This document shows, in pieces, positions 6,882-41,747 of a DNA stretch of 64,000 nt (its first letter is position 1; each line of letters begins with the position of its first letter). Both the position numbers and the translations under genes were made by a program. A model generated the notes under the pieces. That model worked only from the letters and a program-made list of their open reading frames with translations. It ran no database searches and was not told the origin of the DNA. The stretch lies in the sequence record OZ346158.1. The stretch is one strand, 5' to 3'. This DNA comes from a phage.

Positions 6882-7753
6882 GAAGGTGTTCGTCGTATTA
6901 TTTATTACCATAAATAACATTGTGGCTTCGTGCAGTGATGCACGTCGAAAACCTCTTTAATTGACGGGAAGGCTAAGTTGACTTTTACACCTAAACATGG
7001 TAAAAGCTCAATATGCTAATCCGCAGCGAAGACTAAAGGGGTGTAGTTAAAATGGCTAGATCAGTTGATTATCACGGATATACCGTGTTTGATGATGGAA
7101 CAATACCTTTATCGAAACGTGATCATACAACAATGTTCTGTTTTGATAATGGTCGAGGTTACCTTTGCGTAACCATGTTCATCGAGGGGAAGCAGTGCAC
7201 AAAAGGTGTCCACCACTTGGTTGCTGAATGCTTTGTATCAAACCCTGATCCTGAAAGGCTCACATGGGTGAACCATAAGGACGGAAACAAATACAACAAT
7301 GCATACTGGAACCTTGAATGGACCACCCCTGGTGGAAATATCAAACACGCTTATGATAATGACCTCAGAGTAAGGCCAGTCGGTGAGTATAATGCCAACG
7401 CTGTACTGACCGAGGATGAGGTAACGGAGATTTGCGAACTGTTACAAAGTGGTTTACGACAATGCGAGATTAGGGATCTTGGGTATCCTTATGAGACGGT
7501 CAGAGCCATAAAGCAAAGAAGACAGTGGAAACATATCTCTAAAAACTACACCTGGTAGTAACGTTCAGAGACTATCGAAAGCATAGCGCCAACATAAATT
7601 GGTGCGAAGAAGCGAGTAGAGTAGGCCAGCAAGTGCGGTCGAAATGGGAGGTGCCTTGGTAACAAGGTAGTGAGATAGTCCGATCCATACAGGAAACTGT
7701 ATGGCTGTGCACGTAATGGTGCGGGGTAGCTTAACGACCTACCTGAACTATTG
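6882..7753 (+). mobile_element. group I intron in DNA polymerase gene (boundaries proposed)
   Basis: Conserved core elements read directly: P-like AATTGACGGGAAGG (about 6958-6971), Q AATCCGCAGC (7018-7027), R GTTCAGAGACTA (7563-7574), S GAGATAGTCCGATCC (7672-7686), P9 hairpin with GAAA loop (7685-7704); in-frame stop just after the 5' junction; HNH ORF between Q and R. Confidence 0.8.
7052..7558 (+). CDS. HNH homing endonuclease (I-HmuI-like), intron-encoded
   Basis: VHHLVAECF...VNHKDGNKYNNAYWNLEW HNH motif; own RBS aaagggg; lies inside the polymerase intron. Confidence 0.85.
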   Translation: MARSVDYHGYTVFDDGTIPLSKRDHTTMFCFDNGRGYLCVTMFIEGKQCTKGVHHLVAECFVSNPDPERLTWVNHKDGNKYNNAYWNLEWTTPGGNIKHAYDNDLRVRPVGEYNANAVLTEDEVTEICELLQSGLRQCEIRDLGYPYETVRAIKQRRQWKHISKNYTW

Positions 7754-9314: not shown

Positions 9315-9569
9315 ATGAAAATTACTCTGAAGCCAGAATGCGTTGAAAATGACCGAGCTTTTAAAGATTGCACAATCGGTGCAATTTATGAAGCAGAGTT
9401 TTGTGAGAACCCTTTGGTAAAAGCCCTTCTGGAAGAAGGGGCCCCTTTATCACAAGAAGAGATCGATGAGCTGGAAAACTCAGCACAGTGCCTTACCTTT
9501 AAAGATGATGAAGGAGACTCTGTCTGGTGCACTGTTAATGAAGTCGTTTTTGTAAAACCTGAACATTAA
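9315..9569 (+). CDS. hypothetical protein, paralog A (D-x-AF-x-DCT family)
   Basis: 84 aa; shares KPE/DY-x-E-x-D-x-AF-[KR]-DCT and D-[DE]-G-D-x-V-[WC]-CT with next gene; RBS aaggagac. Confidence 0.55.
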   Translation: MKITLKPECVENDRAFKDCTIGAIYEAEFCENPLVKALLEEGAPLSQEEIDELENSAQCLTFKDDEGDSVWCTVNEVVFVKPEH

Positions 9570-9632
9570 TACTTGACAACAGCGATAGGACCTAATACAA
9601 TGGTCCTATCAAAACGAAAGGGGACCACAACA

Positions 9633-9905
9633 ATGACCAAACAATACCAACGAATTAAAGCCAAGGTTAAGCCAGACTATCTGGAGAAGGACTCTGCTTT
9701 TCGGGACTGCACAGCTGACAAAGTTTACACAGGGGCCGTCCTGCTGAACGATGAACTTGAAGTAGATATTCTTGGTAAAGAGGCCACTATTAAGGACGAC
9801 CAAGGCGATTATGTTTGCTGCACCACACGTGAGCTAGAAATCTTAGAATACTTCGGTGAAATCTTCACCTCTCTTGATGATTACTTAGATGATGAGGAAG
9901 CGTGA
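9633..9905 (+). CDS. hypothetical protein, paralog B (D-x-AF-x-DCT family)
   Basis: ORF track 9573..9905; ATG at 9633 after gaaagggga; sequence similarity to 9315..9569 product. Confidence 0.5.
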   Translation: MTKQYQRIKAKVKPDYLEKDSAFRDCTADKVYTGAVLLNDELEVDILGKEATIKDDQGDYVCCTTRELEILEYFGEIFTSLDDYLDDEEA

Positions 9906-26950: not shown

Positions 26951-27214
26951 ATGAAACGTCTTGATCAGCTCAAATTAGTTCAATATATGGCTTATCGTGT
27001 TCTTGAAGTCCAGAAAGGTAGCAAAAAAGAGGTTTGCGAGAAAGCTTATAAGATCTTCACTCGCAAAAAAGATGATTGGATGTTACGCCAGACCAAAAAA
27101 GCCGATATCTTGGGGTACCTGGAAGAAGAGATCCGGCTTGAAGAGCAAGAAGAGATCCGCCGCAGTGAGGCAGATTATCAGGCAGCTTGGGAAAACTGGA
27201 TGAATAACAAATAA
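26951..27214 (+). CDS. hypothetical protein
   Basis: 87 aa; RBS aaagaggaaaaac; preceded by GGGCCAAAAGGCCC hairpin. Confidence 0.55.
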   Translation: MKRLDQLKLVQYMAYRVLEVQKGSKKEVCEKAYKIFTRKKDDWMLRQTKKADILGYLEEEIRLEEQEEIRRSEADYQAAWENWMNNK

Positions 27215-27280
27215 TACAACAAGTTACATGGTCAGGGGCAATAAAGCCCCTTGATCACATAAAAATTATGCCATCCTTGG

Positions 27281-27309
27281 TTGACAGGGATCGGCAGTTT
27301 TGCTATATT
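27281..27309 (+). promoter_or_regulatory. sigma70-like promoter (TTGACA-17-TATATT)
   Basis: Upstream of gene 27359. Confidence 0.55.
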
Positions 27310-27358
27310 CTTTTTTGAAGGGAAGTTGTAAGAAAATTAACTAAGAGGTAAAAACACC

Positions 27359-27778
27359 ATGAACATTAAATCTAATAATCCGGCATATAGCTTTGATAAC
27401 GCTTTTTGTCACGGTCCGGCGGCGAAAGGATTCGAAATCGATGGTAAACTAGTTATTGTCAATGTTGACGGGGAAGAGGTTGCAGTATATCCGGTGGCAG
27501 ACGTTAAAAGCCGTCTACAATGCCGCATCGATGTTACCGCCTACCAGCTTGATCCGGTCCGGGTAGTTGCCCTGGTCCTGGAAGAAGAAATTAAAGCAAT
27601 GCACCACAGCAACAAGTTTATTGGTGACGCTCAAGATAATATGAAGGTGTGCCGCCATAAAGTTAATGAAGTGCTTAAAGAATATGGCTTTAAAGATCTG
27701 ATGATCAAACGTGAGGAAAAATTCCGCTACCGTAACGACCTGGCAAATCGGATTTTTGAAATATACGAATCATTATAA
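27359..27778 (+). CDS. hypothetical protein
   Basis: 139 aa; RBS aagaggtaaaaac. Confidence 0.55.
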   Translation: MNIKSNNPAYSFDNAFCHGPAAKGFEIDGKLVIVNVDGEEVAVYPVADVKSRLQCRIDVTAYQLDPVRVVALVLEEEIKAMHHSNKFIGDAQDNMKVCRHKVNEVLKEYGFKDLMIKREEKFRYRNDLANRIFEIYESL

Positions 27779-27796
27779 TTTCTTAACTGAATTATC

Positions 27797-27824
27797 AAGG
27801 GGCTTAAAGGCCCCTTTCTTTTTG
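27797..27824 (+). terminator. rho-independent terminator ending the + strand block
   Basis: AGGGGC-TTAAAG-GCCCCT followed by TTCTTTTTG. Confidence 0.7.
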
Positions 27825-28544
27825 TCTGCTCTTCTCCTACCATAAACGGCCCTACCTGGCAAGTGGAATAATTGACTAGCCATCAATCCCACATACTGTA
27901 CAAATATACATGGAAAATAACTATTGCATAATTTTTCATTGTGTGGTAGCAAGTCCATTTTTACCCGTTTTCTCTCCCAAAAGTGCACGTAATGCCGCTA
28001 TTGCACAAATTTTAACCTGATGCACATCTCCAATATCTTGTCAACAACTAAAAATCTTTATAAGTCATACACTTACACAGCATCGAAAGCGTGTTCTACG
28101 CGAAAAATCGAGTATAACTATAGCCGCCAGATCTCAGAATTCACGTACGCACGCCATTCTATAGCCTGCAAAGTATTTATTCCAACCACAGAATAACGGA
28201 ATAGTCAATACCTGCATAAAATAATTATTCGTGTAAACTGCATAACATAAATCAGCTCAGGTGTCAACATTTTTCGTAAACAGTCCGAAATTATCACGAT
28301 GAGTTATCATAAACAGAGAAATCTTTAGTCGTCTAATGTTTACTGTACATTACTATACTGACTGGAATCATTAGATGACTAATACAATAGAACAAATTAA
28401 TAATGTAATTATTTTACCTGTAACAATAAGGCAACTATGCAAACGAATGGCATGGCGCGACGGAGTCGCGACATAATATAAAAGCAGTAACCATCACCCC
28501 CGTGATAGTTTGTCTGCAAACTATTAATCAGATCATAGTTGCCT

Positions 28545-28584
28545 TGTATTTAGTTAATCATGACATAACAAGCAAGGCAACTAT
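28545..28584. repeat. 12-bp perfect inverted repeat ATAGTTGCCTTG / CAAGGCAACTAT with third copy at about 28429
   Basis: Read directly; hairpin or operator-like, at the 3' end of the - strand gene block. Confidence 0.6.
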
Positions 28585-28591
28585 AGATATA

Positions 28592-28849
28592 CTAAACCAT
28601 AGCTTCAAAAGGAGTCATGAACGAATAAACGGCATCATCATCTGCTTCAGGGAATGCTCCCAAAGACTTCATATCTGAACCCTTGACAAATACAAGGTTT
28701 TGATCAAAGGCTTCTTGGGGGTCAATCCGATACATATTTCGTAGAATATCGCTTACCTCCTCATCAAGAGGTGAGTATGCTGTGCACGTTTTTCCGATCA
28801 AGCTTTGAGAATCAGGGTATCCACCTGAAGTTTTAAAATAAACAATCAT
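28592..28849 (-). CDS. hypothetical protein (possible distant member of small paralog family)
   Basis: 85-aa ORF. Confidence 0.45.
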   Translation of the reverse strand: MIVYFKTSGGYPDSQSLIGKTCTAYSPLDEEVSDILRNMYRIDPQEAFDQNLVFVKGSDMKSLGAFPEADDDAVYSFMTPFEAMV

Positions 28850-28940
28850 ATAGTATCACCTCTGGTAAGAGATTGGGATTCCTTTCCCACAAATAATTAC
28901 AAATCTTCCTTATCGAGGAAGTATGCTAATCCAAGCAGGA

Positions 28941-29210
28941 TTATTCCTCTACAATCTCATACACATCAGGAGTTACAATCAATTCTTCTCCGTTACCCGG
29001 TGCAACAAACACCACCAAACCTTCAGGTGTGTGCTTTTTAGCCATCTCGATAACATCTTCTCGCAGAGCTGGCTCCATCAGATCAAAACCTTCACCCAGG
29101 GCATCACGAACCACCTTCATATAGTCCACTGGTTGTGCTTCAACAATCATGCCTTCAACCAGTCCACAGTTTTTGTCTGCCAGCTCAGTTTTGAATAATT
29201 TAATTTTCAT
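28941..29210 (-). CDS. hypothetical protein, MK[VI]K-x-[LF] paralog family member
   Basis: Starts MKIKLF, ends EIVEE; RBS gaggag; family resemblance to 30467, 30711 and 34360 genes. Confidence 0.55.
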   Translation of the reverse strand: MKIKLFKTELADKNCGLVEGMIVEAQPVDYMKVVRDALGEGFDLMEPALREDVIEMAKKHTPEGLVVFVAPGNGEELIVTPDVYEIVEE

Positions 29211-29347
29211 TTAGAGGTCTCCTCAATTATTTGATATTAATAGCCGTAACCTAACACATTAACTACAACTGCGATTGCAAACATAATTTCAAAGCATGCA
29301 ATCTCTACATTTGGGACTAATTTCTTAATCACACCCATTGTAGCACC

Positions 29348-29665
29348 TCATTTTCCAAAGTCAATCTTTACTTTGCCTTTCCCCTTACCTTTCTTTCCAC
29401 CGCATTTAGCCAGCTGACGTGCTGCAACATCTACCATACGGTCAGTTGCCTCGTAAGCATCACTACCTTTAGCCTTGGCAATAACTTCTTTTCCAGAATT
29501 GTCAAAAATGAACGCCATAACTTCCTGGTGATCATTTTCAACTTTTACACTCACACGTGCATAGTTGGCAGAGGGGTGCAAACGCTCCAGTTTAGACATT
29601 TTGTTGGAAATGAAAGACACCATACCTTCAGTGATTTCTACGTTGCCAGTGATTTCAATTTGCAT
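29348..29665 (-). CDS. ribosome hibernation-promoting factor / RaiA (YfiA) family homolog
   Basis: MQIEITGNVEITEGM...KLERL...ARVSVK...D...ARQL parallels bacterial HPF/RaiA (MQLNITG...EITEAL...KLE...KHK) as recalled. Confidence 0.7.
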   Translation of the reverse strand: MQIEITGNVEITEGMVSFISNKMSKLERLHPSANYARVSVKVENDHQEVMAFIFDNSGKEVIAKAKGSDAYEATDRMVDVAARQLAKCGGKKGKGKGKVKIDFGK

Positions 29666-29747
29666 AACGTGTTCCTTTTAAAGAAGAGGGAACCAAACCC
29701 TCTTTGAAAACAATGATACTAAATCTGAAGCGTTGTGTCAACAGTTT

Positions 29748-30038
29748 TTACAGATTGTTGTCGATAGTTTTTAAAATATCCACAGCAAGATCTGCCATTT
29801 TTCGAACATACTCTGCAAACTCAACAGGATCCTTGATCAAAGAATTCACAGGGTCGTACCCTAGAGCGTTCAAAATGGCTGCAGCATCTACAACCTTCTC
29901 ATCATTTGCGAAGATCTCTCCATCAAACTTGTAGGTCCATTTTGAGTCAATCTTGGCAGGGAAGGATTGGTCAACGCTTGTTACACCATCCTTTTTAAAC
30001 GCTCCGGTGTTATCAGTGTCCAGAACTAAATCCATCAT
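29748..30038 (-). CDS. hypothetical protein
   Basis: 96-aa ORF. Confidence 0.5.
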   Translation of the reverse strand: MMDLVLDTDNTGAFKKDGVTSVDQSFPAKIDSKWTYKFDGEIFANDEKVVDAAAILNALGYDPVNSLIKDPVEFAEYVRKMADLAVDILKTIDNNL

Positions 30039-30055
30039 GTTAGTACCCCACTGTT

Positions 30056-30454
30056 TCAGTTTAGCTTTTCTTCAACAACCCCATAGCTCGGGACAGAGTC
30101 AAGAGCTTTCTGGTTTAAAAGTGGTGTAGCAGAATCTGCAAACGGTGTCCAAGTTTTTGTTCTGGCATTCCAGTAATGCTTCACTCTGGAATCTGGATGC
30201 ACTATAACAAAAACTTTTTCACTTGTCAACACATTAATTTCTTCTACACCCTTGCTGATAATTTCTCCGTCATAGCCCCCAGTCTGGTATCCTTCGTACC
30301 AGGTTCTTGCATAGGCATAGCCAGCTTGCCAGCATGCAGCCTCCTCCGAGGTGGAGACTACGTAGAAGTCTTTCTCAAATTCTGGAATACGCCCTTGCTT
30401 TATGCTCCAAGCTCCGCGAATTTTCATTGTAACTTTGAACAGTTTATTTTTCAC
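30056..30454 (-). CDS. hypothetical protein
   Basis: 132-aa ORF. Confidence 0.5.
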   Translation of the reverse strand: MKNKLFKVTMKIRGAWSIKQGRIPEFEKDFYVVSTSEEAACWQAGYAYARTWYEGYQTGGYDGEIISKGVEEINVLTSEKVFVIVHPDSRVKHYWNARTKTWTPFADSATPLLNQKALDSVPSYGVVEEKLN

Positions 30455-30466
30455 AACGGTTACCCA

Positions 30467-30721
30467 TCACAGCTCTACAATATTTGCATCTGACCCTACC
30501 CCAAAGGCATAATAGGACTCTTCCCCGAAATAATATTCAGGTGCACCAGCGGTGATCAGGTCTGCTCCTAAGATAAACACTACGTTGTGGCCTACATAAC
30601 TGTGATGTTGCCGAACAGGATCATCCCACGGCAACCCTTCAAAGTATACCGCAGGAACGACCTTTCCCTTCAGGAAGGATTGTCCCAAGTAGACGTTAGA
30701 ATCAAGAATTTTAACCTTCAT
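30467..30721 (-). CDS. hypothetical protein, MKVK-x-L paralog family member
   Basis: MKVKILDSNVYLGQ...GADLITAGA...IVEL. Confidence 0.55.
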   Translation of the reverse strand: MKVKILDSNVYLGQSFLKGKVVPAVYFEGLPWDDPVRQHHSYVGHNVVFILGADLITAGAPEYYFGEESYYAFGVGSDANIVEL

Positions 30722-30938
30722 GATTGTCCTCCACTATCTCTACATCCTCACCTAGGGCAAAGTTGTAGGTCCACTGACTGTCAAAGCATTCCTGAGATGC
30801 ACCAGCGGCAATAAGATCTGCCCCTTTTATTTTTAAAAGGTCGGGGTAATCTTCGTTAGGGACAGCAGTAAACACTTTCCCCACTAAGGGCTCCTGACCA
30901 ATATAGAAGCTCGAATCTAAAACTTTAACTTTCATCAA
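30711..30938 (-). CDS. hypothetical protein, MKVK-x-L paralog family member
   Basis: MMKVKVLDSSFYIGQ...KGADLIAAGA...EIVED. Confidence 0.55.
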   Translation of the reverse strand: MMKVKVLDSSFYIGQEPLVGKVFTAVPNEDYPDLLKIKGADLIAAGASQECFDSQWTYNFALGEDVEIVEDNHEG

Positions 30939-31222
30939 CGGTCTCCATCAGGTGGTTGTGGGACGTAAACACTGTTACGAATATCGTCCGCAGTATAGTA
31001 ATAAGTGTCTCCAACCCTATCTCTGGCTGCAATGTACTCTGCTATACCAATAAGTGCCATTGATTTGGTGGCGTATCTTCCCCACTCGTTAGCTCCCCAG
31101 TAGAATTTAGACCAGTAAGGAATAAGACCGAACAAATATACCTTTTGACGAACTTCCCAGTAAGTGCCTTTTCCGACAAGTTTAAACTCGACTTCACTAC
31201 TGTTAATCTTTTTCATTATCAA
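30935..31222 (-). CDS. hypothetical protein
   Basis: 95-aa ORF in overlapping-stop chain. Confidence 0.5.
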   Translation of the reverse strand: MIMKKINSSEVEFKLVGKGTYWEVRQKVYLFGLIPYWSKFYWGANEWGRYATKSMALIGIAEYIAARDRVGDTYYYTADDIRNSVYVPQPPDGDR

Positions 31223-31515
31223 TCTCCCTCTACCGTGGTAGGATTGTCAGTAAGAAATTGAGCATTGGCTGGAGGCACGCCTGACATTTTCCACACAACC
31301 ATAAGTTTGTAACCAGGCACTCTATTAAGTGCAGATCGAGTAGAGTTTGTGCACGTATACTTTCGCTTTCCAAACCCGTTCTCCATCATAATCCAGTACC
31401 CAGTATCTTTGTCACCAGGTATCGGTAGACCACCTTCATCAACCCACTGAATGGACCACGGCACGATGGCTACAGCTTTATATTTAAACTTTTTAAACCA
31501 CTCAAAAAGTTTCAT
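31219..31515 (-). CDS. hypothetical protein
   Basis: 98-aa ORF. Confidence 0.5.
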   Translation of the reverse strand: MKLFEWFKKFKYKAVAIVPWSIQWVDEGGLPIPGDKDTGYWIMMENGFGKRKYTCTNSTRSALNRVPGYKLMVVWKMSGVPPANAQFLTDNPTTVEGD

Positions 31516-31610
31516 AATTCAGCCTCGCATAGACATAATCACTATAAACAGGCAAACAATGAATCCGAATGCCACGCCACCCATAAACGTTAATATTGAT
31601 GCAATCATAG

Positions 31611-31796
31611 TCAATCAGCCTCGCTTGGCAACTCTTCTACCTTAACATGCCGAAAAGTGTTACCGTAATGGTTGATCCATGACATCAGCTCGCTTTCTTG
31701 CTCTTCCTCTGGGATGAACTCTCGAATGCTGACAAGTTTTAAGAAAACCCAATCACAATCTGCACCCATTCTACCAGACAGGCAATAGTGCTTCAT
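31611..31796 (-). CDS. hypothetical protein
   Basis: 61-aa ORF. Confidence 0.4.
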   Translation of the reverse strand: MKHYCLSGRMGADCDWVFLKLVSIREFIPEEEQESELMSWINHYGNTFRHVKVEELPSEAD

Positions 31797-31814
31797 AAAA
31801 CCCTCCCGCCTGGT

Positions 31815-32009
31815 TTAGAATATTGCTTCTTCCATTGCGCCTGAGAGCAACAAAGAGGTGATCTGGCTAACATTCATCTCAGACTCTACTTCCTCCCCTT
31901 TGAAAGGTTCGCGGCAGAATAGGACTGTTTCAGGACTTTTACTTCGAACAATATAATACAAATCATTCAATGTGTTGTAGTAATAAGTGTTAAAACGTAA
32001 GTTTTTCAT
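31815..32009 (-). CDS. hypothetical protein
   Basis: 64-aa ORF. Confidence 0.4.
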   Translation of the reverse strand: MKNLRFNTYYYNTLNDLYYIVRSKSPETVLFCREPFKGEEVESEMNVSQITSLLLSGAMEEAIF

Positions 32010-33829: not shown

Positions 33830-34363
33830 CTACAAATGGTCGCTGAGGGTGTCAAGAAAATTATCCCGTTCTTTCTCAGAGTTTTCATGTGTGTAGCTGA
33901 AAAACATATCGAGAATAACCTTATTGATATATTCCAGCTCCTCTGTGTTCAGATGCTTAGCAGGATCTACAATGACATCCCAAATATCATACAGACCACA
34001 CTCATGATACCCATAACGCCACTCAATTGTCAAGCTGAGCGGCAAATCTTTACCTTCACAAACAACCTTCCATCTACATATGTTGGTATCTGGTCGTACC
34101 TGTGCACGGTACACCTGCACAAAATCCAATTTGAATTTGAGGTACTCGTCATACAATTTAAGCACAAAGCTCTCGATTTGTGGAGACACTTTTGCAGCAA
34201 ACTGTGCGTATTTGTACTTGCACTGGATGATCTTTCTGCGTTTTGCAGTTAAATTTTTTGCCGCCAGTTGTTCTTCAGTGTATCTCCACCTACGATCAAC
34301 AAACGCAACAGGGTCTTTGTCCCCATAGAGGTCTTCCCAGTTAATCAGAAGCATACCTGTCAC
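33830..34363 (-). CDS. hypothetical protein
   Basis: 177-aa ORF. Confidence 0.55.
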   Translation of the reverse strand: MTGMLLINWEDLYGDKDPVAFVDRRWRYTEEQLAAKNLTAKRRKIIQCKYKYAQFAAKVSPQIESFVLKLYDEYLKFKLDFVQVYRAQVRPDTNICRWKVVCEGKDLPLSLTIEWRYGYHECGLYDIWDVIVDPAKHLNTEELEYINKVILDMFFSYTHENSEKERDNFLDTLSDHL

Positions 34364-34593
34364 TCCTCCACAACTTCAAGGCCTTTACCGCCTCGCTCTG
34401 GCAGATTACTTAAAGATAGGTAATACATATAATCAGGAGAGATCCTGCCAGACTCTGCACCTGCAGCTAGTAAATCCTTCCCTTTAACCAGGACAACATT
34501 CTCGTTTGCAGATAGCCGTTTTGCTTCCACAATTTTACCAACACAGTCAACCAAGGAAGGGTACCCTAAATCTGTAAGAAATTTAACTTTCAT
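34360..34593 (-). CDS. hypothetical protein, MKVK-x-L paralog family member
   Basis: MKVKFLTDLGYPSL...KGKDLLAAGA...EVVEE. Confidence 0.55.
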   Translation of the reverse strand: MKVKFLTDLGYPSLVDCVGKIVEAKRLSANENVVLVKGKDLLAAGAESGRISPDYMYYLSLSNLPERGGKGLEVVEE

Positions 34594-40935: not shown

Positions 40936-41747
40936 TGTGATGAATGGAGTCTGCTGTCTCCTCCCTGTGTTTCCACAGGGCCAGACTATCTCTTACTCTA
41001 CTTCAATAAGATAATAACCCTTTATTGTGAGATGCTTACCTTCGGCATTTCCTTCGATAGCCCTATGAACGTTACCTACGTTCAAATTTAAGGCTTTTGC
41101 ACAGGCATAGAGTGAAGGATATTCACCAACCAAGGTTTTACCTTTGTATGCCTGCACTTTCCTATAGCACTTACCTGGACAAAGTCCTGTTCGGAAAGCA
41201 TGTCTCTTATTATCTTCCGGCAAAACCCACTCTAGGTTAGACGGATGATCATTCAATGTATTGCCATCTTTATGATTCACTTCCCAGTTTTCAGGGTCTA
41301 CTGGGACATCTGGCAAACAATACAAGGCAACAACCCTTGAGGTTTGGATTCGAATCTTTTTGCCTTTGTGGTTGAAAGAGTACATATAACGGCGTTTAAC
41401 ATGCTTGTTACCTTTTCCATAACCTCCCCACAATATTGGGTGTAGCATTCCACGTTTTCCGTATACGTTTCCAACCTCATCAATCACATAGTTTGATTCT
41501 TCACCATTAAGAATGATCTTTTTCATAGAGCCTCTCCATTTCGAAGTTAGTATTTCAACTAACCCCTACACTACTTGGTTCAGAAATGTTTGTCAAGCAT
41601 CTCTGCCTTTCGTTAGTCGTTACAACCGTTCCAACTCCTGTAAGAACTAGTCACGGGATTGGCATAGCTTTCGCCTTAGCGTTCCCCGTTAGCCGGATTT
41701 ACCGACCCCTCTTATGAGGTTAGGAGAGTTTTACAACGGCCAGTTTG
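40936..41747 (-). mobile_element. group I intron in nrdD (boundaries approximate)
   Basis: On - strand: R-like GUAACGACUAAC (about 41610-41622), S-like GAGAUAGUCUGG (40981-40992), P9 hairpin CCCTGTG-GAAA-CACAGGG (40963-40980); HNH ORF embedded. Confidence 0.7.
40993..41526 (-). CDS. HNH homing endonuclease, intron-encoded
   Basis: SRVVALYCLP...VNHKDGNTLNDHPSNLEWV HNH motif; RBS ggagagg; between the two nrdD segments. Confidence 0.85.
   Translation of the reverse strand: MKKIILNGEESNYVIDEVGNVYGKRGMLHPILWGGYGKGNKHVKRRYMYSFNHKGKKIRIQTSRVVALYCLPDVPVDPENWEVNHKDGNTLNDHPSNLEWVLPEDNKRHAFRTGLCPGKCYRKVQAYKGKTLVGEYPSLYACAKALNLNVGNVHRAIEGNAEGKHLTIKGYYLIEVE

What the first reader, a model, noticed from the sequence alone, without database searches (positions are those of the whole stretch)
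29348..29665. Ribosome hibernation-promoting factor (HPF/RaiA) homolog inside a block of small unknown genes
The 105-aa product aligns along its length with bacterial HPF/RaiA (MQIEITGNVEITEGM..., KLERL, ARVSVK, ARQL). A phage-encoded ribosome-silencing factor suggests direct manipulation of host translation, for example shutting down host ribosomes or stabilising them during takeover. It sits among paralogous small proteins that may act with it.
Basis: partly seen in the sequence, partly recalled or inferred. Interest (0 to 1): 0.65.

Follow-up and report, generated by a model that had tools for sequence, protein, structure and literature searches.

The report
Known rV5-phage ribosome hibernation factor homolog
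The gene is real and does encode a diverged copy of the bacterial ribosome hibernation factor HPF, but it is gp144 of the well-known rV5-like coliphages, which was annotated in 2006, published, and even tested once for ribosome binding with a negative result, so the finding is correct but not new.

Summary
The 105-aa ORF at 29348..29665 (minus strand) is real. It belongs to the HPF/YfiA family: Pfam PF02482 E=1e-12, 42% identity to E. coli HPF over its full length, and an AlphaFold model that matches solved HPF at 1.0-1.1 Å.

The window is a Vequintavirus (rV5-like coliphage), and the gene is rV5 ORF144. GenBank has annotated it since 2006, together with its own sigma-70 promoter P144. It was discussed in Kropinski 2013, Mizuno 2019 and Mathieu 2020, and it is present in about 119 phage records.

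Mizuno et al. expressed it in E. coli. They found it in extracts but not in salt-washed 70S/100S ribosomes, and saw no effect on 100S.

What I add:
- The phage clade is as far from enterobacterial HPF (37-43%) as HPF is from RaiA.
- It scores below NCBI's equivalog cut-offs for both HPF and RaiA.
- It has lost three conserved rRNA-contact residues (E51, K80, K89) and HPF's K93/H95 end.
- It carries a new Lys/Gly-rich tail instead.
- It is under purifying selection (dN/dS about 0.1), and a second phage lineage (64% identity) keeps the gene, a promoter-like site upstream and the flanking genes.

The nearby paralogs (phrog_5009) are unrelated to HPF. Ribosome silencing remains an untested inference.

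The parts
29348..29665 (-). CDS for a 105-aa HPF/YfiA-family protein, equivalent to rV5 ORF144 / ABI79209. [quoted passage not shown] Residues 90-105 form a disordered Lys/Gly-rich tail (GKKGKGKGKVKIDFGK).
   Evidence: It is 98% identical to the rV5 protein cluster P0001. dN/dS is 0.06-0.14 against diverged rV5-like copies.
29713..29741 (-). Sigma-70-type promoter, TTGACA-17 nt-TATCAT, in the 82-bp gap between the upstream gene's stop codon and the HPF ATG. It corresponds to rV5 promoter P144.
   Evidence: It matches 11 of 12 consensus positions. The pattern TTGACA-N16-18-TATNAT occurs 8 times in the window against 0.24 expected. It is listed as P144 in rV5 Table S4 and in GenBank DQ832317. 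It is conserved in 8 rV5-like loci, and a promoter-like TTGACA site also sits directly upstream of the 64%-identical homolog.
29684..29704 (-). Small hairpin near the predicted 5' end of the transcript (AAGAGGG-TTTGGTT-CCCTCTT). It is of doubtful significance.
   Evidence: The fold gives -9.9 kcal/mol, but the z-score is only -0.72 against shuffles. It is imperfect in V18 and A141 and absent from the L003 lineage. There is no Rfam match.
29673..29676 (-). Shine-Dalgarno-like AGGA, 7 nt upstream of the ATG.
   Evidence: Read directly from the sequence.
29237..29338 (-). Downstream 33-aa hydrophobic ORF, equivalent to rV5 ORF145 ('membrane protein, 1 TMD'). It is probably co-transcribed with HPF and is absent from the 64%-identity lineage.
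28941..29210 (-). Downstream 89-aa acidic protein of unknown function (rV5 ORF146, phrog_11868). It is the syntenic partner of the HPF gene in both phage lineages (58% identity between them). It is not an HPF homolog, although one record labels it 'sigma 54 modulation factor'.
28905..28921 (-). Weak terminator-like hairpin after the 89-aa gene. It may mark the end of the P144 transcript.
   Evidence: This is a consensus scan match only.

Best explanation
This is gp144 of an rV5-like Vequintavirus. It is a diverged, phage-specific member of the HPF/YfiA (Ribosomal_S30AE) family, and it sits closer to short HPF than to RaiA. Host RNA polymerase probably transcribes it from the gene's own sigma-70 promoter.

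The mechanism I think most likely is inferred, not shown. The folded domain still docks in the decoding channel of vacant host 30S/70S ribosomes, using the retained K25, R83, K87 and K91 plus a new flexible Lys-rich tail. Binding would be weaker or altered, because E51, K80, K89, R33 and H55 and the K93/H95 end of HPF are replaced. On this reading it acts as a reversible occupant of idle ribosomes that competes with host HPF/RaiA, either protecting the ribosome pool or keeping it from entering RMF/HPF 100S hibernation. It would not be a classical 100S-promoting or translation-killing factor.

My confidence differs by step. Identity and family membership are about 0.97. Ribosome binding at the HPF site is about 0.55. 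The direction of the effect is unknown.
For: - Family and fold: Pfam and TIGR00741 scores are above their cut-offs. The protein is 42% identical to E. coli HPF. The model matches HPF in the hibernating ribosome structure 6h4n at TM 0.90.
- Conservation of the core: 17 of the 24 columns that are at least 75% conserved in diverse bacterial HPF/RaiA are retained. These include K22, K25/L26, D69, Y71, D75, R83, Q84 and K87. R83, K87 and K91 are among the four ribosome-contacting residues shared by HPF and YfiA (bioRxiv 10.1101/2025.10.07.680626).
- Tail charge: the tail carries +4 to +6, compared with +2 in HPF and -4 in YfiA. In E. coli the tail is the feature that separates HPF function from YfiA function (PMC7764885).
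- Selection and distribution: dN/dS is 0.06-0.14. The gene is present in 119 phage records. A 64%-identical lineage keeps the gene, a promoter-like site upstream and the same flanking genes.
- Promoter: it is a strong consensus match and was already annotated as P144.
- No 100S promotion: expression in E. coli had no effect on 100S.
Against: - rV5 HPF was not detected by mass spectrometry in 70S/100S fractions, although it was present in extracts (PMC6375957). The authors themselves list high-salt washing and growth phase as possible causes.
- Three conserved rRNA-contact positions are replaced in both phage lineages: E/D51 to M/S, K80 to V/T and K89 to G/S. The uS9-contacting H55 is F. T53 is F/R. 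The E-tRNA and G693 contacts R33, K93 and H95 are gone.
- The protein scores far below NCBI's equivalog cut-offs for HPF (56 against 125 bits) and RaiA (18 against 158 bits).
- There are no expression-timing or infection data.
Confidence: 0.55

Rival explanations
1. It is a classical hibernation factor. It binds like E. coli HPF, works with RMF to drive 100S dimers or otherwise silences host ribosomes, and so shuts off host translation during takeover.
For: It belongs to the same family and has the same fold. It is closer to HPF than to RaiA, at 37-43% against 22-26% identity. Databases label it hpf or 'ribosome hibernation factor'.
Against: Expression in E. coli did not change 100S levels, and the protein was not found in 100S/70S. 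It lacks the K93/H95 C-terminus that contacts E-tRNA and G693 in the 100S structure and lacks K80 and K89. It scores below the HPF equivalog cut-off. A general block of the decoding site would also stop phage translation. The binding mode of HPF cannot tell host from phage mRNA, because it occupies vacant ribosomes only (inference from established HPF biology).
Confidence: 0.15
2. The protein has been neofunctionalised. [quoted passage not shown] It instead binds another RNA or protein, for example host RMF, HPF or YfiA as a decoy, or phage or host transcripts.
For: The ribosome mass-spectrometry result was negative. Conserved contact residues are lost in both phage lineages, and a new hydrophobic face appears on strand beta3, where T53 and H55 are replaced by F52 and F54. 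The divergence from HPF equals the HPF-RaiA distance. A distinct conserved tail ends in K-x-D-aromatic: KIDF in the rV5 type and KWDY in P0004.
Against: The R83/K87/K91/K25 basic track is retained, and the added basic tail is what an rRNA binder would keep. The negative experiment used salt-washed ribosomes from arabinose-induced cells, which is not a hibernation condition. No alternative partner is known.
Confidence: 0.25
3. It is a passenger gene with no function, a decaying host-derived gene.
For: The gene is small and lies in a block of dispensable-looking small ORFs. This very genome has lost about 6.4 kb and 17 small genes just downstream.
Against: Purifying selection is strong. There were 26 synonymous against 8 non-synonymous differences to the most diverged copy, and dN/dS is about 0.06-0.14. 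The gene is intact in all 119 records. A lineage that has diverged to 64% identity keeps it, with its own promoter-like site.
Confidence: 0.03

Closest known systems
rV5 gp144 / ORF144 (ABI79209; 'sigma 54 modulation factor', 'hpf', 'ribosome hibernation factor') of Vequintavirus phages
   Same: It is the same gene. The protein is 98% identical to the rV5 protein cluster. It has the same promoter P144 and the same neighbours ORF143, 145 and 146. About 119 phage records carry it at 93% identity or more.
   Different: This copy ends in ...DFGK instead of ...DFGE. Residue 21 is N, as in pangalan and MaxTheCat, where the rV5 cluster representative has H. The genome lacks about 6.4 kb that follows three genes further downstream in relatives.
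E. coli HPF (YhbH), the short hibernation promoting factor (PDB 2rql, 6h4n, 4v8h)
   Same: The fold is the same, at rmsd 1.1 Å. Identity is 42% over residues 1-91. The N-terminal MQ(L/I)xITGNxVEITE motif, K26, E60, D69/Y71, R83, K87 and K91 are conserved.
   Different: K80 is V, K89 is G, D51 is M, T53 is F, H55 is F and R33 is S. The KHKDKLKQH end, with K93 and H95 contacting E-tRNA and G693, is replaced by a tail 10 residues longer, KCGGKKGKGKGKVKIDFGK. The protein fails the NF007780 equivalog cut-off. It had no effect on 100S when expressed.
E. coli YfiA/RaiA (protein Y)
   Same: It has the same family and fold. Like the phage protein, it has a C-terminal extension beyond the HPF length, and that extension is what makes YfiA antagonise RMF and 100S formation.
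   Different: Identity is only 22-26%. The YfiA tail is 26 residues long and acidic (-4), whereas the phage tail is 18 residues long and strongly basic (+4 to +6). The protein fails the NF007654 cut-off. RefSeq's 'RaiA' label on phage copies is a generic family name.
Other virus-encoded HPF homologs (Cronobacter phage GAP32, E. coli jumbo phage Sharanji, Xanthomonas phage XaC1; phrog_8990)
   Same: They are PF02482 proteins in large (>130 kb) myoviruses (PMC6375957).
   Different: They are independent acquisitions. The rV5 clade forms its own PHROG (phrog_12469, E=4e-70) and only weakly matches phrog_8990 (E=9e-7). GAP32 groups with Firmicutes-type sequences according to Mizuno et al..

Membership tests
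HPF/YfiA superfamily (Pfam PF02482 Ribosomal_S30AE; TIGR00741) | Profile score above the curated cut-off over the full domain | tested here: met
   PF02482 scores 48.9 bits against 23.7, covering model positions 1-83 of 88. TIGR00741 scores 46.1 against 40.9.
HPF/YfiA superfamily (Pfam PF02482 Ribosomal_S30AE; TIGR00741) | [quoted passage not shown] | tested here: met
   The AlphaFold model has elements E2-7, H13-29, E33-42, E47-55, E60-67 and H70-89 with pLDDT above 90 for most of residues 1-89. The top 37 Foldseek PDB hits are all HPF, RaiA or pY.
HPF/YfiA superfamily (Pfam PF02482 Ribosomal_S30AE; TIGR00741) | Binding to the 30S decoding channel of vacant ribosomes | not testable with these tools
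   The published test on rV5 HPF was negative but inconclusive, because the ribosomes were washed in high salt (PMC6375957).
Short HPF of gammaproteobacteria (NCBIfam NF007780 equivalog, E. coli YhbH type) | Equivalog-level profile score | tested here: not met
   It scores 56.2 bits against a cut-off of 125. It is 37-43% identical to enterobacterial HPFs, which are 83-98% identical to each other.
Short HPF of gammaproteobacteria (NCBIfam NF007780 equivalog, E. coli YhbH type) | Conserved basic track on helix alpha2 (K80, R83, K87, K89, K91) that contacts 16S rRNA | tested here: inconclusive
   R83, K87 and K91 are kept. K80 is V (T in P0004) and K89 is G (S in P0004).
Short HPF of gammaproteobacteria (NCBIfam NF007780 equivalog, E. 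coli YhbH type) | Short C-terminus ending in K93...H95, which contacts E-site tRNA and stacks on G693 | tested here: not met
   It is replaced by an 18-residue Lys/Gly-rich tail predicted to be disordered.
Short HPF of gammaproteobacteria (NCBIfam NF007780 equivalog, E. coli YhbH type) | Promotes conversion to 100S together with RMF | not testable with these tools
   The literature reports no discernible effect on 100S in cells expressing rV5 HPF.
RaiA/YfiA (NCBIfam NF007654 equivalog) | Equivalog-level profile score and the long acidic C-terminal tail that blocks RMF | tested here: not met
   It scores 18.2 bits against a cut-off of 158. Identity is 22-26%. The tail is basic rather than acidic.
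Long HPF (Gram-positive type) | C-terminal dimerisation domain, giving a protein of about 180-190 aa | tested here: not met
   The protein is 105 aa with no second domain.

The most novel reading that the evidence does not exclude
The rV5-type protein may be a third functional class of the HPF/RaiA family, a phage 'anti-hibernation' or placeholder factor. It would use the retained core and a new Lys/Gly-rich tail to occupy the HPF/RaiA site weakly. It would exclude host HPF, RaiA and RMF and prevent 100S formation, including hibernation triggered by stress or by defence systems. Ribosomes would then stay immediately available for phage mRNAs in slow-growing or stationary hosts. Mizuno et al. 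raised a version of this idea in 2019, but it has never been tested.
Probability: 0.2. Interest if true: 0.6.

Novelty: already known. Interest (0 to 1): 0.22.

Why it matters
If a function were shown, this would be a clear case of a virulent coliphage tuning the host's ribosome hibernation machinery. That bears on how phages replicate in slow-growing or dormant bacteria and on phage therapy against stationary-phase cells.

The gene itself, its family assignment and its promoter are already in the databases and the literature, so nothing new is discovered here. The open question is purely functional: does the protein bind ribosomes during infection, and with what effect?

The residue-level comparison made here gives concrete mutants for that experiment. 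These are the loss of E51, K80, K89 and of K93/H95, and the gain of a basic tail.

Tried and rejected
- 5' UTR hairpin (29704..29684) as a regulatory element. Its folding energy is no better than shuffled sequence (z -0.72). It is imperfect or absent in relatives. There is no Rfam hit in 27000-32000. I rejected it as evidence of anything.
- A second HPF-like gene next door. Phage pangalan labels the 89-aa ORF (28941-29210) 'sigma 54 modulation factor'. It has no Pfam hit, falls in a PHROG of unknown function, and did not match HPF in the all-against-all BLASTP. The label is an annotation error.
- Neighbours as HPF partners. Nine flanking proteins have no Pfam hits, and all their PHROGs are 'unknown function'. 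The paralog family phrog_5009 is unrelated to HPF.
- Recent capture from the host. The word-indexed search found only the phage clade. The exhaustive search of 1.84 billion representatives found one relative above 50% identity, which was also from a phage, and bacterial HPFs at 45% or less. The gene is therefore not a recent host copy.
- Literature search for any later functional study of phage HPF. Searches found nothing beyond Mizuno 2019 and genome descriptions.
- Contact geometry. I could not compute atomic contacts on 6H4N because no coordinates are available in the sandbox. Contact residues are therefore taken from the papers.

Full report

Yes. An ORF runs on the minus strand from the ATG at 29665 to the stop at 29348 and encodes 105 aa. 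An AGGA ribosome-binding site lies 7 nt upstream.

Several independent tests place the protein in the HPF/YfiA family:
- It matches Pfam PF02482 (Ribosomal_S30AE) at E=1.1e-12, 48.9 bits against a gathering score of 23.7, over nearly the whole model.
- It passes TIGR00741, the HPF/YfiA family model, at 46.1 against 40.9 bits.
- phmmer against PDB sequences puts E. coli HPF first, at E about 6e-12 over residues 1-89.
- BLASTP gives 42% identity to E. coli HPF and 25% to YfiA.
[quoted passage not shown] Residues 90-105 are disordered.
- Foldseek against the PDB returns V. cholerae HPF (rmsd 1.0 Å) and E. coli HPF from the hibernating ribosome 6h4n (TM 0.90). The top 37 hits are all HPF, RaiA or pY proteins.

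**2. What is the genome, and is the gene known?**

The window is an rV5-like coliphage of the genus Vequintavirus. The 3.5 kb around the gene is 97-99.9% identical to about 100 phage genomes, including pangalan, MaxTheCat, rV5 and FV3. tblastn finds the protein at 93% identity or more in 118 phage records.

The gene is rV5 ORF144 (ABI79209). GenBank DQ832317 annotates it as 'sigma 54 modulation factor', together with a 'Sigma70-type promoter; P144' feature.

It has appeared in three papers:
- The rV5 genome paper lists it with its PF02482 hit and lists the promoter sequence (PMC3606486 Tables S3/S4).
- Mizuno et al. 2019 (PMC6375957) catalogued it among virus-encoded ribosomal proteins and tested it. 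The protein was expressed from pBAD24 in E. coli NM522 and its peptides were found in crude extract. No peptides were found in 70S/100S ribosomes isolated under high salt, and the 100S peak did not change. The authors list growth phase, genuine loss of binding, or salt stripping as possible explanations.
- Mathieu et al. 2020 (PMC6969025) note hpf as an auxiliary gene of rV5 phages.

I found no later functional work. The finding is therefore already known as a gene, and its function is unresolved.

**3. Anatomy of the locus**

The 82-bp gap upstream of the gene holds TTGACA-17 nt-TATCAT at 29741..29713, which matches 11 of 12 consensus positions. The pattern TTGACA-N16-18-TATNAT occurs 8 times in the window against 0.24 expected by chance. 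These are therefore very likely genuine host-type promoters, and this one is P144.

A small hairpin follows at 29704..29684. It is not statistically distinguishable from shuffled sequence (z -0.72), and nothing in Rfam matches the region.

Downstream on the same strand lie a 33-aa hydrophobic ORF (29237-29338, rV5 ORF145) and an 89-aa acidic protein (28941-29210, ORF146). A weak terminator-like hairpin follows.

Three to four members of phrog_5009 lie at 30467-30721, 30711-30938 and 34360-34593, with a weak fourth at 28592-28849. They have no similarity to HPF and no Pfam hits. Nothing but proximity links them to it.

**4. How diverged is the gene, and is it maintained?**

The word-indexed search found only the phage clade. 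An exhaustive HMMER scan of 1.84 billion cluster representatives found 23 proteins at E of 1e-3 or better. The only relative above 50% identity is P0004 (64%, 103 aa), and the next best are bacterial HPFs at 45% or less.

P0004 is encoded on other 125-137 kb phage contigs, in the same place within the block of small genes. The ORF143 and ORF146 homologs flank it, at 45% and 58% identity, and a promoter-like TTGACA site lies directly upstream.

Within the rV5 type, Nei-Gojobori dN/dS against diverged copies is 0.06-0.14. The most diverged copy shows 26 synonymous against 8 non-synonymous differences. The gene is therefore under purifying selection and was inherited vertically across at least two phage lineages.

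The phage proteins are 37-43% identical to enterobacterial HPFs, which are 83-98% identical to each other. They are 22-26% identical to RaiAs. HPF and RaiA are 35-43% identical to each other. The phage clade is thus as far from HPF as HPF is from RaiA.

Consistent with this, the protein fails NCBI's equivalog cut-offs for both HPF (56 against 125 bits) and RaiA (18 against 158 bits). RefSeq's 'RaiA' label and the old 'sigma 54 modulation factor' label are generic family names.

**5. Ribosome-contact residues**

Published cryo-EM work names the following HPF contacts:
- a basic track on helix alpha2 (K80, R83, K87, K89, K91) that contacts 16S rRNA
- H55/E60, which contact the C-terminus of uS9
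- T53 and V/H62 (with E51 in P. aeruginosa), which contact m2G966
- K26 and Q29, which contact the phosphates of C1496 and G1497, the nucleotides next to m3U1498
- R33 and K93, which contact the E-site tRNA
- H95, which stacks on G693

These come from bioRxiv 10.1101/2025.10.07.680626 and Beckert et al. 10.1101/382572.

In the phage protein some contacts are kept and some are replaced:
- K26, E60, R83, K87 and K91 are kept.
- Q29 is R and H62 is I, both compatible changes.
- D/E51 is M (S in P0004).
- T53 is F (R in P0004).
- H55 is F (F in P0004).
- R33 is S (T in P0004).
- K80 is V (T in P0004).
- K89 is G (S in P0004).

The KHKDKLKQH end is replaced by KCGGKKGKGKGKVKIDFGK, or KYSKSKGIDKRTAKWDY in P0004.

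I also compared the phage proteins with 20 diverse bacterial family members. Of the 24 columns that are at least 75% conserved, 17 are retained. The seven exceptions include E51, K80 and K89. K80 is invariant in all 24 enterobacterial HPF/RaiA sequences aligned.

The new tail carries +4 to +6 net charge, compared with +2 for HPF and -4 for YfiA. In E. coli the C-terminal tail is what distinguishes HPF, which is compatible with RMF and 100S, from YfiA, whose tail blocks RMF (PMC7764885). The tail is therefore the most informative difference.

**6. Mechanism**

These points are shown:
- family membership
- the fold
- the gene's own sigma-70-type promoter
- purifying selection
- conservation across two phage lineages
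- partial loss of canonical contacts, together with gain of a basic tail

The rest is inferred. I think the most likely mechanism is that the protein still occupies the decoding channel of vacant ribosomes, but with altered or weaker contacts. It would act as a reversible occupant that competes with host HPF/RaiA, and it would not promote 100S. I put this at about 0.55 for ribosome binding, with the direction of the effect unknown.

The rivals are:
- a classical silencing or 100S factor (0.15), which is disfavoured by the 100S result, the missing K93/H95 end and the sub-threshold equivalog score
- neofunctionalisation away from the ribosome (0.25), which is supported by the negative mass-spectrometry result and the lost contacts, but the experiment was done under high salt in non-hibernating cells
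- a functionless passenger (0.03), which the dN/dS values contradict

**7. Verdict**

The novelty is 'already known'. Interest is low, because the gene, the family call, the promoter and even the obvious first experiment are published. The residual interest lies in the unresolved function of a phage-specific third branch of the HPF/RaiA family.

**8. Seen in passing**

This genome lacks about 6.4 kb that all 123 related records carry just downstream. The missing stretch holds 17 small genes plus part of rV5's 'non-coding' region, and the junction lies at 28594|28595. Several database labels on this gene or its neighbour are wrong.

Noticed in passing
window 28594|28595: There is a deletion junction here. 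Window 22000-28589 matches phage WalterGehring 88131-94725, and window 28595-31500 matches 101112-104017. About 6.4 kb is therefore missing, comprising 17 small hypothetical genes (bas51_0134-0150) plus about 1.65 kb of rV5's 'non-coding' region. None of 123 related phage records spans this junction. The deletion clips the last two codons of the gene at 28592-28849 (85 aa here, 87 aa in relatives).
   Followed up: partly
window 29348-29350 (last codon of the HPF gene): This copy ends ...DFGK, whereas the eight other rV5-type copies examined end ...DFGE. The change raises the tail charge from +4 to +6.
   Followed up: no
window 30467-30721, 30711-30938, 34360-34593 (and weakly 28592-28849), all minus strand: A small paralog family (phrog_5009, function unknown, about 75-85 aa, MKVK(I/V)LDS... 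N-terminus) has three to four copies. Two of them are adjacent and overlap by 11 nt.
   Followed up: partly
window 28941-29210 (-), equivalent to pangalan_77: Several Danish phage records label this 89-aa acidic protein 'sigma 54 modulation factor', but it has no PF02482 hit. Separately, some records (bov10K2, bov11CS3, 12A_SA_NWU) label the true HPF gene 'ATP-dependent protease La type I'. Both are annotation errors that are propagating through the databases.
   Followed up: yes
phage records MG0656xx: About 18 'UNVERIFIED Campylobacter phage' records, with C. jejuni given as host, are 95-99% identical to E. coli rV5-like phages across this region. The host assignment looks doubtful.
   Followed up: no
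window, 8 sites (8373, 15329, 19308 on +; 29741, 34033, 37646, 39037, 55194 on -): Perfect TTGACA-N16-18-TATNAT promoters occur 8 times against 0.24 expected by chance. This is consistent with rV5 relying on unmodified host sigma-70 RNA polymerase across the genome.
   Followed up: partly
window 9315-9569 / 9573-9905 (+); 40993-41526 (-) vs 7052-7558 (+): Two further pairs of similar ORFs turned up in the all-against-all BLASTP. One is a tandem pair at 34% identity (E=1e-8). The other pair shares a 48-aa stretch at 48% identity (E=2e-6).
   Followed up: no
L009 (phage V18) and L008 (JES2013), HPF gene: V18-type copies have an extra Asn (GNNVEIT), which restores the E. coli HPF spacing. The JES2013 copy starts with GTG.
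   Followed up: no
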